A stretch of DNA of 64,000 bases from a virus, in the IMG/VR virus record IMGVR_UViG_3300030329_004457, positions 1-64,000 of that record; one strand, given 5' to 3'. Below the pieces are notes generated by a model. That model ran no database searches and was not told the DNA's origin. It saw nothing but the letters and a program-made list of their open reading frames with translations. Below, one piece after another: positions 27,361 to 53,468 of this stretch (position 1 is its first letter; every line of letters begins with the position of its first letter). The translations under genes were made by a program, and so were the position numbers.

Positions 27361-27623
27361 TTTTCTACACCTTCTTCTACAGGAGTAGCCTCATTGGCTC
27401 CACGCAGTAAAAGTCGTAACTTATTACGTAGATTACCAAGGGGCCGTATGTTATTCAAATTGCCTTTTATGTCTTGTAGAAGTGTACAAATCGGCCTACA
27501 TGTGTCCGTGACTATAACAGTCTTTGTAACAATCGATTTTTCTGGTTTGATTTCAGTACCATGCACGCCATATCCAACCAACATACTTAACATAAACACC
27601 AATACCATAATTCCACTTTTCAT
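27357..27623 (-). CDS. Secreted hypothetical protein
   Basis: Hydrophobic N-terminus; AGGAG SD. Confidence 0.55.
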   Translation of the reverse strand: MKSGIMVLVFMLSMLVGYGVHGTEIKPEKSIVTKTVIVTDTCRPICTLLQDIKGNLNNIRPLGNLRNKLRLLLRGANEATPVEEGVEK

Positions 27624-27674
27624 TTGAAACGCTCCTTTGTCTAATACATTATTAATAGTAAGTTATATTATTTC

Positions 27675-27887
27675 CTATCTCCATTCTGTACGTTGTTCGT
27701 CTGATTGAACGGAGGACGGATCAGAATTATTCATTTTTCTATACAGTTTATTTAACTTTTTGTTTAATTTAGCTTTCTTTCTTAGTAGTTCTGTTTGATC
27801 TTTCTGACTAACAGCAATATCTAGTGCTGCTTCGATATTAAAAAGGCTATCTTCCATATTGTGGATTTGTTTTCCAATACTATTCAT
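27675..27887 (-). CDS. Hypothetical protein
   Basis: 70-aa ORF in operon. Confidence 0.5.
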   Translation of the reverse strand: MNSIGKQIHNMEDSLFNIEAALDIAVSQKDQTELLRKKAKLNKKLNKLYRKMNNSDPSSVQSDEQRTEWR

Positions 27888-28182
27888 AAGGCCACACTTT
27901 CGCTAGAGACTCATTAATTCCTTCAATATTTACCAGCCAACGTCCATATTTTCCAGTTTTGGTTGTTTGGATTTTCACATAATCCTCCTCATCTTTTTTT
28001 TCATTAAGTAAATTAGTTAAAACCGATGTAGCTTTTGCCCAATCTTCATGACCTCGTTCTGGAGTATCCACACCTAGAAGTCTGGTACGTATACGAATAT
28101 TAATACGAAAGCCAAGATCAACATCAAAATCTACAGTATCTCCATCGACTATTTTAATTACTTTAGCTCGATATTCGTGCAT
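27880..28182 (-). CDS. Thermonuclease (SNase-like)
   Basis: KIVDGDT, RLLGVDTPE, GKYGRWL. Confidence 0.9.
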   Translation of the reverse strand: MHEYRAKVIKIVDGDTVDFDVDLGFRINIRIRTRLLGVDTPERGHEDWAKATSVLTNLLNEKKDEEDYVKIQTTKTGKYGRWLVNIEGINESLAKVWPYE

Positions 28183-28702
28183 TAGACCACCAATCAGGAC
28201 TATTCCTATTCCGCCAACTGGCTAGGTGTGATTTTTCATTAATATAATAGTTGCGATATGCTAAGACCGGATCATCCATTTTACAATAGGATGGTATTGC
28301 TTGCACAAAAGTAGTGCGCCCTTTATTGGCTATTCTTTTGGGTATTCGTTGCAAACAATCTTCAATAATCCTTTCGCATTTGTGTTCTTTTCCATAACGA
28401 TATGTGTATTCTTTACATAGCTCTATACCTAATATACACAGCCATACGTAATTCTCTGCACTTTCAGCAGCCCATTGACAACAGGGATGATGTTCATGTG
28501 TCGATTTATACGGAGCAGTTAGGTCTCCATATTGTCTACGTACCGTGCATAGAATTTGGGCTGTTTCTAGAGGCATTTTGACAATATGCTTGTCCATATG
28601 CCATTTAGCGGCCTCTTTAGGGTCTTTAGATAATACAAAAATATTCAAATACAAACCCTCCCTTTGGATGTCTTGACTATGTAGCTGTTTTGGAGCAACC
28701 AC
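28163..28702 (-). CDS. Pyrimidine-dimer DNA glycosylase / endonuclease V-like protein
   Basis: NIFVL..DP..AA..HMDKHIVKMPLETAQIL, HHPC..W, EYTYRYGKEH, AYRNYY; true start probably near 28648. Confidence 0.75.
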   Translation of the reverse strand: MVAPKQLHSQDIQREGLYLNIFVLSKDPKEAAKWHMDKHIVKMPLETAQILCTVRRQYGDLTAPYKSTHEHHPCCQWAAESAENYVWLCILGIELCKEYTYRYGKEHKCERIIEDCLQRIPKRIANKGRTTFVQAIPSYCKMDDPVLAYRNYYINEKSHLASWRNRNSPDWWSNARISS

Positions 28703-29562
28703 GGTTCAATTATACTCTCAATAGTCTGTTTGTCAATCCCCGTAATGCAACATAGTGTTTCAATACCTAACGGCTGGTCGCTATTTTTTAAAACTTTTAA
28801 ATATTTTCGATCCATCGCGGTCATACCTTGAGAGTCTATGCCTTTCAGGCCCATAGCTGCCTCGACATTGCCCTCTGTGAGCGTTTCAATACCCTCTGCG
28901 AGTTGATAGTCCCGTAACCATTCGAGGGCCGCATTGGCGATTCTCGGCGTTCCTCTTGAAACTTTTGTTACAAAATTAGATGCCTGAGGGGACATTTTAA
29001 GATTTAATTTTTTAGAATTAATATTAATAATCTCTTGTAGCTCTACCTTATTATATAGCTTAAGGGTATGTTTATGTTGAAATCTATCAATTAAGGGCTT
29101 AGAAAGTGAACCATATTCTGTAGTAGCTCCCATTAAAGTGAAGCGAGGGATGTCGATACTAAGGGTTTCTCCCATCATTTCTTTACTGGACATGGACATA
29201 TCAACTTTAAAGTCCTCCATGACTGGATATAGAAATTCTTCTACAATATTAGTCATCCGATGAATTTCGTCTATAAATAAAATAGAATGTTCTTCTACCC
29301 TCATGATATAAGGAAGAAGATTCTTAATACTTCTTAGATTAGCTCCATTAGCAACCTGAAGGGAAGAGCCCATCTCGTTAGAGATCGCATTAGCCAGAGT
29401 CGTTTTACCTGTACCGGGAGGGCCGTAAAATAATGTATGCGCTAGACAGTCCTGTCTGGCTTGTGCGCTTTTAATACTAATGTTTAATACTTTTACAACG
29501 TCTTTTTGTCCAAGGATATCTGACAGCGTGTTAGGTCGTAGCTGGTTCATGCTTTTTATCAA
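28645..29562 (-). CDS. ruvB: Holliday junction branch migration motor RuvB
   Basis: LRP..L..ILGQ, LFYGPPGTGKTTLA, LFIDEIHR, EEFLYPVMEDF, FTLMGATT, SRGTPRIAN, IEPWLLQ. Confidence 0.95.
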   Translation of the reverse strand: MIKSMNQLRPNTLSDILGQKDVVKVLNISIKSAQARQDCLAHTLFYGPPGTGKTTLANAISNEMGSSLQVANGANLRSIKNLLPYIMRVEEHSILFIDEIHRMTNIVEEFLYPVMEDFKVDMSMSSKEMMGETLSIDIPRFTLMGATTEYGSLSKPLIDRFQHKHTLKLYNKVELQEIININSKKLNLKMSPQASNFVTKVSRGTPRIANAALEWLRDYQLAEGIETLTEGNVEAAMGLKGIDSQGMTAMDRKYLKVLKNSDQPLGIETLCCITGIDKQTIESIIEPWLLQNSYIVKTSKGRVCI

Positions 29563-29929
29563 TCCTAGAAAGAACTTCTTTAACTATGGTTTCGATAGCC
29601 ATACCGTCTGTTTCTAAGTTCTTTAATACATTATCAATCTCCTTTGAAGCAAATCCGTATGATTGAATAATCTTTTTAGCATCTTGTTTGCCATATTCTA
29701 ACAAATCCGAAACCACCTTTTCTGTGGATTTTTTGATCTTAGGAGTTTTCTTGTACTTAATTTTAATAGAAACTGGCTTAATCTCTAAGGGAATTTGACA
29801 ATTTTCACACACCTGATATGTCGATCCCTCTGTGGGAATAGAATAATTAGAAAGCTGAAATAGATAATCACATTTAGGACATCCCAATGTTATATCTAAA
29901 TTATACTCGACTAATTGTGCTTTATCCAT
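29531..29929 (-). CDS. Zn-ribbon fused to a RuvA C-terminal (domain III)-like helical domain
   Basis: CPKC..CENC; C-terminal DAKKIIQSYGFASKEIDNVL..IETIVKEVL resembles RuvA domain III; directly upstream of ruvB. Confidence 0.6.
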   Translation of the reverse strand: MDKAQLVEYNLDITLGCPKCDYLFQLSNYSIPTEGSTYQVCENCQIPLEIKPVSIKIKYKKTPKIKKSTEKVVSDLLEYGKQDAKKIIQSYGFASKEIDNVLKNLETDGMAIETIVKEVLSRIDKKHEPATT

Positions 29930-29949
29930 TTAATTTCTCCATATAAAAA

Positions 29950-30195
29950 TGATGTTTTTGGTCATTCTCCCTACTCACTCAAGAAACATCAAAAACTTGG
30001 TTTTTAATGTAGGAAGACGGTTTGACTGTGCTTGTTACTCACGTAAGACCGTTTACTTAGTTTTAATATAACAAGAGAGGTTTGGGACTACACTCCACTC
30101 AGTCAAGACCTCAAACTTGCTTTTTGTTGTGGAGAGGTGTAATTTGTGTAATCACCTACCCAGCCAAGATTACGAACTTGCTTTTGTTGTAGGAG
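29950..30195 (-). ncRNA. Structured RNA array, units 1-4 (~60-nt pseudoknot repeats)
   Basis: Units at 29950-30016, 30017-30075, 30077-30134, 30139-30195; three covarying helices; the last unit overlaps the TnpB-like stop codon. Confidence 0.8.
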
Positions 30196-42819: not shown

Positions 42820-42828
42820 CTCCTAAAG

Positions 42829-43167
42829 TGGAGGCGGGGGGAATTGAACCCCCGTCTTGTCTAGATTCCATATTAGCGTCTACATTATTAGTTTGTTGTA
42901 TTCGCACAGCAAAACAAAGCTATCAGAATTATCTGAGTCAGGTTCATTAGAACCATCAGACTAGATTAATTCAGGTTTGTCGTCCCTATCAGAATTATCT
43001 GAGTCAATACAATTGGGCAATGAGGCTTGTATAACCCCAGCAGCTTATGCTGCCATTGCAAAACTAGGTTCAGCAATTAAAGGATTTAATCGGCTTTTAT
43101 ACTGGACTGCCGACCAACCAGTTAATGCAACTAATACTTCCGCTATCAATCGACTCCAATCGCCCCC
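42829..43167 (-). ncRNA. ssrA: tmRNA; tag peptide AEPSFAMAA* (43074-43045)
   Basis: 5' GGGGGCG pairs with 3' CGCCTCC-A and has G3-U70; T-arm GGGGGTTCAATTCCCC; internal tag ORF ending AA-stop. Confidence 0.93.

Positions 43168-53394: not shown

Positions 53395-53468
<74 letters not shown>

What the first reader, a model, noticed from the sequence alone, without database searches (positions are those of the whole stretch)
28645..29929. Zn-ribbon/RuvA-domain-III fusion plus RuvB directly downstream of the RNA array
Seen: the 132-aa ORF has a CxxC..CxxC ribbon and a C-terminus resembling RuvA domain III, without RuvA's OB and HhH DNA-binding domains. It overlaps ruvB and starts 20 bp after RNA unit 1, all co-oriented. 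Known: RuvA domain III is the part that binds RuvB. Inference: an adaptor that recruits the RuvB motor to something other than a Holliday junction, possibly the TnpB-like RNP, which would give an RNA-guided motor or remodelling complex.
Basis: partly seen in the sequence, partly recalled or inferred. Interest (0 to 1): 0.72.

Follow-up and report, generated by a model that had tools for sequence, protein, structure and literature searches.

The report
Phage RuvB with zinc-ribbon mini-RuvA
A large uncultured T4-like phage carries its own RuvB DNA motor plus a small partner that keeps only RuvA's RuvB-docking domain joined to a zinc ribbon; the TnpB-like gene and RNA units next to it are a separate mobile insertion, not part of the machine.

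Summary
ORF 29531-29929(-) encodes 132 aa: a Cys4 zinc ribbon, a Lys-rich linker and a C-terminal three-helix domain. It overlaps a full-length RuvB gene (28645-29562, -).

The C-terminal domain is homologous to RuvA domain III:
- Family profiles hit RuvA domain III first among all PDB sequences (E down to 6e-6).
- hhalign against E. coli RuvA gives 89% probability.
- A pLDDT-89 model superposes on RuvA domain III at 1.2 A over 48 of 48 residues, the top hit of 48,161 chains.

No RuvA OB or HhH domain occurs in this record or in five complete relatives.

The pairing is conserved. RuvB follows the adaptor in every close locus that extends far enough. An adaptor-family ORF abuts RuvB in 67 of 80 more distant IMG/VR loci.

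- 12 of 16 close relatives have the adaptor directly after the upstream gene, or after an unrelated small ORF, with no TnpB or RNA units.
- None of the 80 distant loci has a TnpB.
- TnpB-bearing genomes are scattered among TnpB-free nearest relatives.

Best reading: a minimal RuvA substitute that docks on and activates phage RuvB. This scan had already noted the same module in at least 15 other genomes. I found no paper describing it.

The parts
29531..29929 (-). Mini-RuvA adaptor, 132 aa: zinc ribbon + basic linker + RuvA-domain-III homologue
   Evidence: ORF. The family has 54 close homologues and 46 cluster representatives. The AF2 model has pLDDT 89.1.
29762..29929 (-). N-terminal Cys4 zinc ribbon (about residues 1-56; four strands at 12-16, 23-27, 37-40 and 47-50)
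   Evidence: C17, C20, C41 and C44 are invariant in 58 sequences. The model has pLDDT above 90 here. The nearest folds are small zinc ribbons such as the ZitP zinc finger (Foldseek prob 0.90, TM 0.60 normalised by target). Weak Pfam hits go to DUF7836 and Zn_ribbon_4.
29702..29761 (-). Lys-rich flexible linker (about residues 57-76)
   Evidence: Model confidence is lower here. Net charge is +4 in this protein and up to +14 in relatives, and linker length ranges from 11 to 45 residues across the family.
29558..29701 (-). RuvA domain III homologue (residues 77-124; three helices)
   Evidence: VIA-align top hit is 7pbp_G (RuvA domain III): Z 6.7-7.2, rmsd 1.2 A, 48 of 48 residues. hhalign to E. 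coli RuvA residues 155-200 gives prob 88.5-89.3%. The top PDB sequence hits are all RuvA. Pfam RuvA_C matches 9 of 29 members, best E 5.6e-7.
28645..29562 (-). RuvB AAA+ motor, 305 aa, overlapping the adaptor's 3' end
   Evidence: Pfam RuvB_N 2.3e-50, AAA_lid_4 2.1e-13 and RuvB_C 1.4e-19, all above cut-off. PDB RuvB hits reach 4e-67. Identity to E. coli RuvB is 39%, with Walker A/B, the Arg finger and the beta-hairpin kept.
29930..31572 (-). Separate mobile insertion, not part of the module: TnpB-like gene (30170-31405) with two ~60-nt RNA units upstream and four downstream
   Evidence: It is absent from the same site in 12 of 16 close loci. The window, L009/L013 and L016 share its junctions. 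The unit core motif occurs only in TnpB-bearing loci.
31573..31830 (-). Upstream gene (85 aa, unknown function) that abuts the adaptor in relatives with an empty site
   Evidence: tblastn synteny. The empty-site junction is stop codon, 1-16 nt, then the adaptor ATG.
28163..28702 (-). Conserved downstream gene: phrog_624 'DNA binding protein' with weak similarity to pyrimidine-dimer glycosylase
   Evidence: PHROG E 4.5e-57. Pfam Pyr_excise E 8e-4 is below cut-off. It is present after RuvB in most close loci.
27880..28182 (-). Conserved downstream small nuclease (SNase-like, phrog_452)
   Evidence: PHROG E 2e-23. It is conserved after RuvB in close loci and in L020.

Best explanation
The 132-aa protein is a phage-type minimal substitute for RuvA. 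Its C-terminal domain is a homologue of RuvA domain III. That domain docks hydrophobically on RuvB's presensor-1 beta-hairpin and acts there as an ATPase and nucleotide-exchange activator and as an anchor. RuvA's tetrameric OB/HhH junction clamp is replaced by a single Cys4 zinc ribbon on a flexible, positively charged tether, which would hold the complex on phage DNA or on another fixed partner. The gene is translationally coupled to the phage's own RuvB, so the two are made together. The pair most likely drives branch migration or fork remodelling during the recombination-dependent replication and repair of this T4-like phage, with junction cutting left to an endonuclease VII-type resolvase encoded elsewhere. 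Shown: the domain III homology, the absence of RuvA domains I and II, the intact RuvB, and the conserved coupled gene pair. Inferred: physical docking, activation of RuvB, what the zinc ribbon binds, and the DNA substrate. The TnpB-like gene and its ~60-nt RNA units are an unrelated mobile insertion that landed between the upstream gene and the adaptor in some lineages.
For: Domain III homology: the A3 and A5 profiles rank RuvA domain III chains first among 177,635 PDB sequences (E 5.8e-5 and 6e-6). hhalign to E. coli RuvA residues 155-200 gives prob 88.5-89.3%, E about 2e-6. Pfam RuvA_C hits 9 of 29 diverse members, best E 5.6e-7. An ESM Atlas neighbour cluster carries RuvA_C on 50% of its members.

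Contact residues: E. coli L167 and L170, whose Ala mutants abolish RuvB activity in vivo (PMC2628435), align to I88 and Y91. In 58 family members these positions are hydrophobic in 57 and 52 sequences. G92 is kept in 57 of 58 and F93 is aromatic in all 58.

RuvB: all three Pfam domains are above cut-off. Identity to E. coli RuvB is 39%, with Walker A/B, the Arg finger and the RuvA-binding hairpin retained.

Coupling: the two genes overlap by 20-32 nt here. RuvB follows the adaptor in all close loci that extend far enough. In 67 of 80 IMG/VR RuvB loci an adaptor-family ORF ends between 47 nt inside and 3 nt before the RuvB start. Five of five complete adaptor-bearing genomes have exactly one copy, located next to RuvB.

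No canonical RuvA: none in this record, in 80 loci or in 5 complete relatives.

Resolvase: no RuvC, but an endonuclease VII homologue in 4 of 5 complete relatives.

Role of domain III: it binds the hairpin, raises ATPase activity and anchors RuvB, and RuvA serves as a fulcrum (PMC9477746).

TnpB independence.
Against: No physical or co-folding evidence for adaptor-RuvB contact could be obtained, because no multimer prediction is available. The structural Z scores (6.7-7.2) are modest in absolute terms because the domain has only 48 residues, and UBA-type three-helix domains score nearly as high. In 13 of 80 RuvB loci, including two complete genomes, there is no adaptor at all, so RuvB can evidently persist without it. 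The RuvB hairpin shows no difference between adaptor-bearing and adaptor-free phages. In this clade the zinc ribbon is acidic (net -3 to -7), so direct DNA binding by the ribbon is doubtful. Its nearest fold, ZitP, is to my knowledge a protein-binding finger. Nothing shows that the protein oligomerises as RuvA does, so the junction specificity of the complex is unknown.
Confidence: 0.7

Rival explanations
1. One reading: the adaptor recruits RuvB to the neighbouring TnpB-like ribonucleoprotein, giving an RNA-guided motor or remodelling complex.
For: In the window the TnpB-like gene, its RNA units, the adaptor and RuvB are adjacent and co-oriented. A TnpB-like gene sits at the same place in L009/L013, L016 and, at 60% identity, L019.
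Against: Ten close loci have the upstream gene's stop codon 1-16 nt before the adaptor ATG, and two more have an unrelated small ORF there. None of 80 distant RuvB loci has a TnpB within 3 kb. Each TnpB-bearing adaptor has TnpB-free nearest relatives, while the TnpB copies are 89-94% identical across lineages whose adaptors are 41-73% identical to the window's. That pattern indicates lateral spread of an insertion. The unit motif travels with TnpB only. The RuvC-III catalytic Asp of the TnpB-like protein is replaced by His.
Confidence: 0.03
2. The adaptor is a decoy or insulator rather than an activator. Its domain III occupies the RuvB hairpin to stop host RuvA from capturing the phage RuvB, or it sequesters host RuvB and disables host recombination during infection.
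For: It has only the docking domain and lacks the junction clamp. The hairpin is conserved in phage RuvBs whether or not an adaptor is present, so host RuvA could plausibly bind it. Some complete RuvB-bearing phages do without the adaptor.
Against: Tight translational coupling to the phage's own RuvB in 67 of 80 loci points to a cognate stoichiometric partner. A pure decoy would not need an invariant Cys4 ribbon and a charged tether conserved across the whole family. Domain III binding is itself activating in RuvAB (PMC9477746).
Confidence: 0.12
3. The zinc ribbon tethers RuvB to another phage protein or machine (replisome, resolvase, packaging or transcription complex) rather than to DNA, so the motor acts on a substrate other than a Holliday junction.
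For: The ribbon is acidic in this clade. Its best structural neighbours are small zinc ribbons such as ZitP. Two unknown conserved genes lie just upstream of the adaptor in 78 of 80 distant loci.
Against: No partner has been identified. Across the family, positive charge moves between ribbon and linker but stays in the N-terminal half, which fits nucleic-acid contact. Neighbouring genes are otherwise miscellaneous.
Confidence: 0.12
4. The C-terminal domain is a generic UBA-like three-helix bundle with no RuvB contact, and the gene merely shares an operon with ruvB.
For: UBA, CUE and SOUBA domains score close to RuvA in the structure search (Z 5.5-6.8). The single-sequence Pfam hit is below the cut-off.
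Against: The sequence-only profile searches pick RuvA specifically and repeatedly. The most conserved positions coincide with RuvA's RuvB-contact helix and the GY/GF motif. Gene overlap with RuvB is conserved down to about 20% adaptor identity.
Confidence: 0.03

Closest known systems
Bacterial RuvA-RuvB branch-migration complex (E. coli, T. thermophilus 1IXR/1IXS, the 7PBL series, P. aeruginosa 7X7Q)
   Same: The RuvB is full-length and has all motifs and the presensor-1 hairpin. The partner gene lies immediately upstream, as in ruvA-ruvB. The partner's C-terminal domain is homologous to RuvA domain III, sits on a flexible linker, and keeps the hydrophobic L..LGY-type helix that contacts RuvB.
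   Different: The partner has no OB-fold domain I and no HhH domain II. It therefore has no evident tetramer, junction clamp or acidic pin. A 56-residue Cys4 zinc ribbon stands in their place. There is no ruvC; complete relatives carry a T4 endonuclease VII-type resolvase instead. The family was found in viral contigs and in metagenome contigs syntenic with this phage.
Isolated RuvA domain III fragment (as used in 1IXS and 7X7P)
   Same: It is a docking and activating module without junction-binding domains.
   Different: That fragment is a laboratory truncation. Here it is a natural protein with an added zinc ribbon and a charged tether, conserved across a large phage family.
T4 UvsW / gp49 branch-migration and resolution system
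   Same: The biological setting is the same: a T4-like phage (rIIA/rIIB present) that needs branch migration and junction resolution. An endonuclease VII homologue is present in relatives.
   Different: The motor is a RuvB-type AAA+ hexamer with a domain III cofactor, not an SF2 helicase. I did not test whether UvsW is also present.
TnpB / Cas12f-family proteins with guide RNAs (the neighbour)
   Same: The neighbouring gene has the Cas12f1-like TNB domain (2.1e-11, above cut-off), and its best PDB sequence hits are Cas12f and TnpB proteins.
   Different: It is not functionally tied to the RuvB pair. It is a variable insertion, and its RuvC-III Asp is replaced by His.

Membership tests
RuvA (canonical, three-domain) | Domain I OB fold (Pfam RuvA_N, PF01330) | tested here: not met
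   No hit in the protein at E<=1. None in the 92-kb record. None in 5 complete relatives. The model shows a zinc ribbon there instead.
RuvA (canonical, three-domain) | Domain II with two helix-hairpin-helix DNA-binding motifs | tested here: not met
   No HhH family appears among the Pfam hits. Between the ribbon and domain III the model has only a linker (residues 57-68) and the start of helix 69-90.
RuvA (canonical, three-domain) | Domain III (RuvA_C, PF07499), the RuvB-binding three-helix domain | tested here: met
   Profile to PDB sequences: RuvA ranks first, E 6e-6. hhalign prob 89%. Pfam RuvA_C on 9 of 29 members, best E 5.6e-7. Structure: Z 6.7-7.2, rmsd 1.2 A, 48/48 residues. This member alone scores 18.8 bits, below the 24-bit cut-off.
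RuvA (canonical, three-domain) | Tetramer or octamer that sandwiches a Holliday junction | not testable with these tools
   No multimer prediction or biochemistry is available. The domains that form the tetramer are absent.
RuvB | RuvB_N AAA+ domain, AAA lid and RuvB_C winged helix | tested here: met
   170.9, 50.3 and 70.3 bits, all above the curated cut-offs. PDB RuvB hits reach 4e-67 over residues 7-304.
RuvB | Walker A, Walker B, sensor 1 and Arg finger (EcRuvB R174) | tested here: met
   GPPGTGKT, LFIDEIH, GATT and DRF all align with the E. coli motifs.
RuvB | Presensor-1 beta-hairpin that binds RuvA domain III (EcRuvB L135-L152) | tested here: met
   It is present at the aligned position, one residue longer than in E. 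coli, and present in all 80 related phage RuvBs. Its role is taken from PMC2628435 and PMC9477746.
   TnpB is absent at the site in 12 of 16 close loci and in all 80 distant loci.
TnpB/Cas12f nucleases (the neighbour gene) | Intact RuvC D-E-D catalytic triad | tested here: not met
   The RuvC-III motif reads SAHSNAADNIA where a solved TnpB/Cas12f-family protein (7wju) has NADYNAARNIA, so the Asp is replaced by His. Only this one position was checked here.

The most novel reading that the evidence does not exclude
The zinc ribbon re-aims the RuvB motor at something other than a Holliday junction, for example stalled or reversed forks, protein roadblocks on DNA, or a phage protein machine. The family would then be a natural 'plug-in adaptor' for a AAA+ translocase, with domain III as a universal socket. 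An RNA-guided link to the TnpB-like RNP is a sub-case that I put at about 2%.
Probability: 0.25. Interest if true: 0.7.

Novelty: new variant of a known kind. Interest (0 to 1): 0.45.

Why it matters
RuvAB is a textbook recombination machine, and all studied versions use a tetrameric RuvA to recognise the Holliday junction. This large family of uncultured T4-like phages keeps RuvB and only the RuvB-docking domain of RuvA, on a new zinc-ribbon handle. That is a natural experiment on which RuvA functions are needed: activation and anchoring through domain III, versus junction clamping. It offers a small tractable system (132 aa plus 305 aa) for testing the fulcrum model of Wald et al. 2022. A comparative review of jumbo phages found RuvC there uncoupled from any RuvB-like ATPase (PMC7824862), so a widespread phage RuvB with its own cofactor adds to that picture. 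The more striking idea of an RNA-guided motor does not hold.

Tried and rejected
I used metagenome and IMG/VR loci instead.
- Scans of viral contigs with the adaptor alone and with alignment A1 found nothing.
- Alignment A3 was too diverse to seed a scan.
- The close-family profile A2 did not reach RuvA among PDB sequences and gave only 8.5% hhalign probability. The diverse alignments A3 and A5 were needed.
- PHROGs has no family for the adaptor.
- Deposited phage genomes have no match to this region's DNA or to the adaptor protein. RuvB matches there are at most 41% identical.
- Foldseek gave no significant match, because both domains are small.
- I compared the RuvB hairpin between adaptor-bearing and adaptor-free phages to look for co-variation. 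There was no difference, so the test was uninformative.
- Rfam has no family for the ~60-nt units.
- Promoter and terminator scans of 27500-32500 were at or below shuffled expectation.
- jackhmmer from E. coli RuvA against all ORFs of the 80 loci found no RuvA.
- One call failed on a coordinate slip and was not repeated.
- Co-folding of adaptor with RuvB could not be done with the tools on hand.
Full report
**Observation.** All features lie on the minus strand. ORF 29531-29929 encodes 132 aa. ORF 28645-29562 encodes 305 aa and overlaps the first by 32 nt from its TTG start, or by 20 nt from the next ATG. Upstream lie four ~60-nt repeat units (about 29950-30190) and a 411-aa TnpB-like gene (30170-31405). 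The last unit ends about 20 nt before the adaptor ATG, which has a GGAG ribosome-binding site. The window is part of a 92-kb IMG/VR virus record estimated at 45% complete. It carries rIIA and rIIB homologues, a tmRNA and four tRNAs, so it is a large T4-like phage.

**RuvB.** All three RuvB Pfam domains score above their cut-offs: RuvB_N 2.3e-50, AAA_lid_4 2.1e-13 and RuvB_C 1.4e-19. The best PDB sequence matches are bacterial RuvBs, at E 4e-67 over residues 7-304. Identity to E. coli RuvB is 39% over 299 residues. Walker A (GPPGTGKT), Walker B (LFIDEIH), sensor 1, the Arg finger (DRF) and the protruding hairpin at E. coli positions 135-152 are all retained. That hairpin is the RuvA-binding element (PMC2628435; PMC9477746).

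**The 132-aa protein: sequence evidence.**
- The single sequence gives only sub-threshold Pfam hits: RuvA_C E 0.0023, 18.8 bits against a cut-off of 24.
- It belongs to a family of 54 close homologues and 46 cluster representatives at 50% identity.
- A narrow alignment of close homologues (A2) did not reach RuvA.
- With a diverse 29-sequence alignment (A3), the nine best RuvA chains rank within the top ten PDB sequence hits, matched at residues 154-200, best E 5.8e-5.
- hhalign of A3 against E. coli RuvA gives 88.5% probability, E 2.7e-6, over residues 155-200.
- Nine of the 29 A3 members hit Pfam RuvA_C at E<=0.01, best 5.6e-7.
- A 58-sequence alignment (A5) gives the same picture: T. thermophilus RuvA domain III at E 6e-6, and hhalign at 89.3%.

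**The 132-aa protein: structure evidence.**
- AlphaFold2 with A5 gives a mean pLDDT of 89.1. The model has a four-stranded zinc ribbon (residues 12-50), a less confident linker and three helices at 69-90, 95-104 and 112-126.
- In an all-against-all comparison with 48,161 PDB chains, the top hit is RuvA domain III (7pbp_G): Z 6.7, rmsd 1.2 A, all 48 residues aligned to model residues 77-124.
- M. tuberculosis, T. thermophilus and P. aeruginosa RuvA entries are also in the top ten. The first, lower-confidence model gave the same ranking.
- The Z values are modest because the domain is small, and UBA-like domains follow closely. The structure alone is therefore not decisive; the sequence profiles make the assignment specific.

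**Conserved positions.**
- E. coli L167 and L170, whose Ala mutants abolish RuvB activity in vivo (PMC2628435), align to I88 and Y91.
- Across 58 family members, position 88 is L, I, V or M in 57 sequences and position 91 is hydrophobic or aromatic in 52.
- G92 is present in 57 of 58 and F93 is aromatic in all 58.
- The C-terminal L-[VI]-K..L motif mirrors RuvA's LIR..L.
- The four cysteines are invariant.

**What is missing.** The protein has no OB or HhH domain. The record has no RuvA_N, and its only RuvA_C-like segment is this ORF. It also has no RuvC or RecA, though it is incomplete.

**Conservation of the pair.**
- Sixteen metagenome loci and three IMG/VR loci encode close relatives. Wherever the DNA extends past the adaptor, RuvB follows and overlaps it, usually followed by the same two downstream genes.
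- A RuvB-seeded scan of IMG/VR confirmed 147 stretches encoding RuvB relatives, and the best 80 were kept as loci (42-67% identity).
- In 67 of those 80, the ORF ending between 47 nt inside and 3 nt before the RuvB start belongs to the adaptor family (E 1e-11 to 1e-40). None has a full-length RuvA.
- Many of these distant members use a CxxC...CxC ribbon and a basic N-terminal half.
- Five of five complete adaptor-bearing genomes (131-231 kb) have exactly one copy, located beside RuvB.
- Of five complete genomes tested, none has RuvA_N or RuvC, and four have an endonuclease VII homologue.
- Thirteen of the 80 loci have no adaptor, and two of these come from complete genomes that lack it entirely. 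The cofactor is therefore common but not obligatory.
- ESM Atlas neighbour clusters are 94-100% viral.
- Deposited phage genomes hold no match to the adaptor.

**The TnpB question.** In ten close loci, the 85-aa gene that lies at 31573-31830 in the window ends 1-16 nt before the adaptor ATG, with no TnpB and no units. Two further loci carry a different small ORF at that junction, which suggests an insertion hot spot.

The TnpB-like gene sits at this site only in the window, L009/L013, L016 and, at 60% identity, L019. The window, L009/L013 and L016 share both junctions.

Each TnpB-bearing adaptor has TnpB-free nearest relatives: the window is closest to L003, L004 and L002 (77-80%), L009 to L012 and L008 (87-88%), and L016 to L007 (80%). 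The TnpB copies are 89-94% identical across lineages whose adaptors are only 41-73% identical to the window's.

The unit core motif occurs only in TnpB-bearing loci. None of the 80 distant loci has a TnpB. So about 1.64 kb (29930-31572) is a laterally spreading insertion, and its adjacency to the RuvB pair is incidental.

The TnpB-like protein also has His in place of the RuvC-III Asp. Rfam has no family for the units.

**Mechanism.** Wald et al. (PMC9477746) show three things. RuvA domain III binds the presensor-1 hairpin. It stimulates ATP hydrolysis and nucleotide exchange through the converter. RuvA acts as the fulcrum against which RuvB pulls DNA.

The phage protein keeps this socket. I infer that it activates RuvB and anchors it through the zinc ribbon and charged tether.

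Net positive charge stays in the N-terminal half across the family but shifts location. In this clade the ribbon is acidic and the linker is +4 to +14. In the distant clade the ribbon is basic and the linker neutral. That fits loose nucleic-acid contact, but the evidence is weak. The ribbon's nearest folds are generic small ribbons such as ZitP. The substrate (junction, fork or other) is unknown.

**Standing.** I found no paper describing this architecture. A comparative review of jumbo phages notes that their RuvC is not coupled to a RuvB-like ATPase (PMC7824862). Within this scan the same module has already been noted in at least 15 other genomes, and follow-up agents confirmed it in several. 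This window is therefore another member of that family. What is specific to it, the TnpB neighbour, turns out to be unrelated.

Noticed in passing
window 29930-31572 (-); L009, L013, L016, L019: A TnpB-like gene with two ~60-nt structured units upstream and four downstream forms a ~1.64-kb insertion. Its junctions are shared by the window, L009/L013 and L016, whose copies are 89-94% identical at protein level; L019 has a 60%-identical copy at the same site but its junctions were not compared. Its RuvC-III Asp is replaced by His (SAHSNAADNIA). No Rfam family matches the units.
   Followed up: partly
L015:350-611 and L017:711-972: A different ~260-bp segment with a small ORF occupies the same junction between the 85-aa gene and the adaptor. 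This intergenic point looks like an insertion hot spot.
   Followed up: no
L002:346-1161, L007:8303-9067, L011:636-1400: A second, divergent TnpB-like gene (25-27% identical to the window's) lies upstream of the CAP-domain gene homologue in relatives that lack the insertion next to the adaptor.
   Followed up: no
L026, L027, L032, L049, L051, L056, L061, L063, L068, L083, L091, L092, L093: These 13 IMG/VR RuvB loci have no adaptor; a conserved acidic 132-146-aa ORF of unknown function abuts RuvB instead. Of five of their source records searched whole, none has an adaptor, and two of those are complete genomes (153 kb and 229 kb). In most other loci that same acidic ORF sits just upstream of the adaptor.
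   Followed up: partly
window 42826-43167 (-); 32169-32241, 32996-33068, 33072-33156, 53395-53468 (-): A phage-encoded tmRNA (86.7 bits) and four tRNA genes.
   Followed up: no
window 33164-36216 (-): rIIA (714 aa) and rIIB (294 aa) homologues. rIIB lies about 2.2 kb upstream of RuvB in 47 of the 80 distant loci, so the rII-to-RuvB region is syntenic across this phage group.
   Followed up: partly
window 27880-28702 (-): Two genes are conserved downstream of RuvB: a phrog_624 'DNA binding protein' weakly similar to pyrimidine-dimer glycosylase, whose GTG start overlaps the RuvB 3' end, and a 100-aa SNase-like nuclease (phrog_452). Together with the RuvB pair they may form a small repair module.
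   Followed up: no
window 32545-32946 (-): A 133-aa protein with a CAP / cysteine-rich secretory protein domain (Pfam E 4e-11), which is unusual in a phage early region.
   Followed up: no
L062:5206-6219: A Volactin/actin-like gene (Pfam E 3.3e-60) lies about 1.3 kb downstream of the RuvB start in 44 of the 80 distant loci.
   Followed up: no
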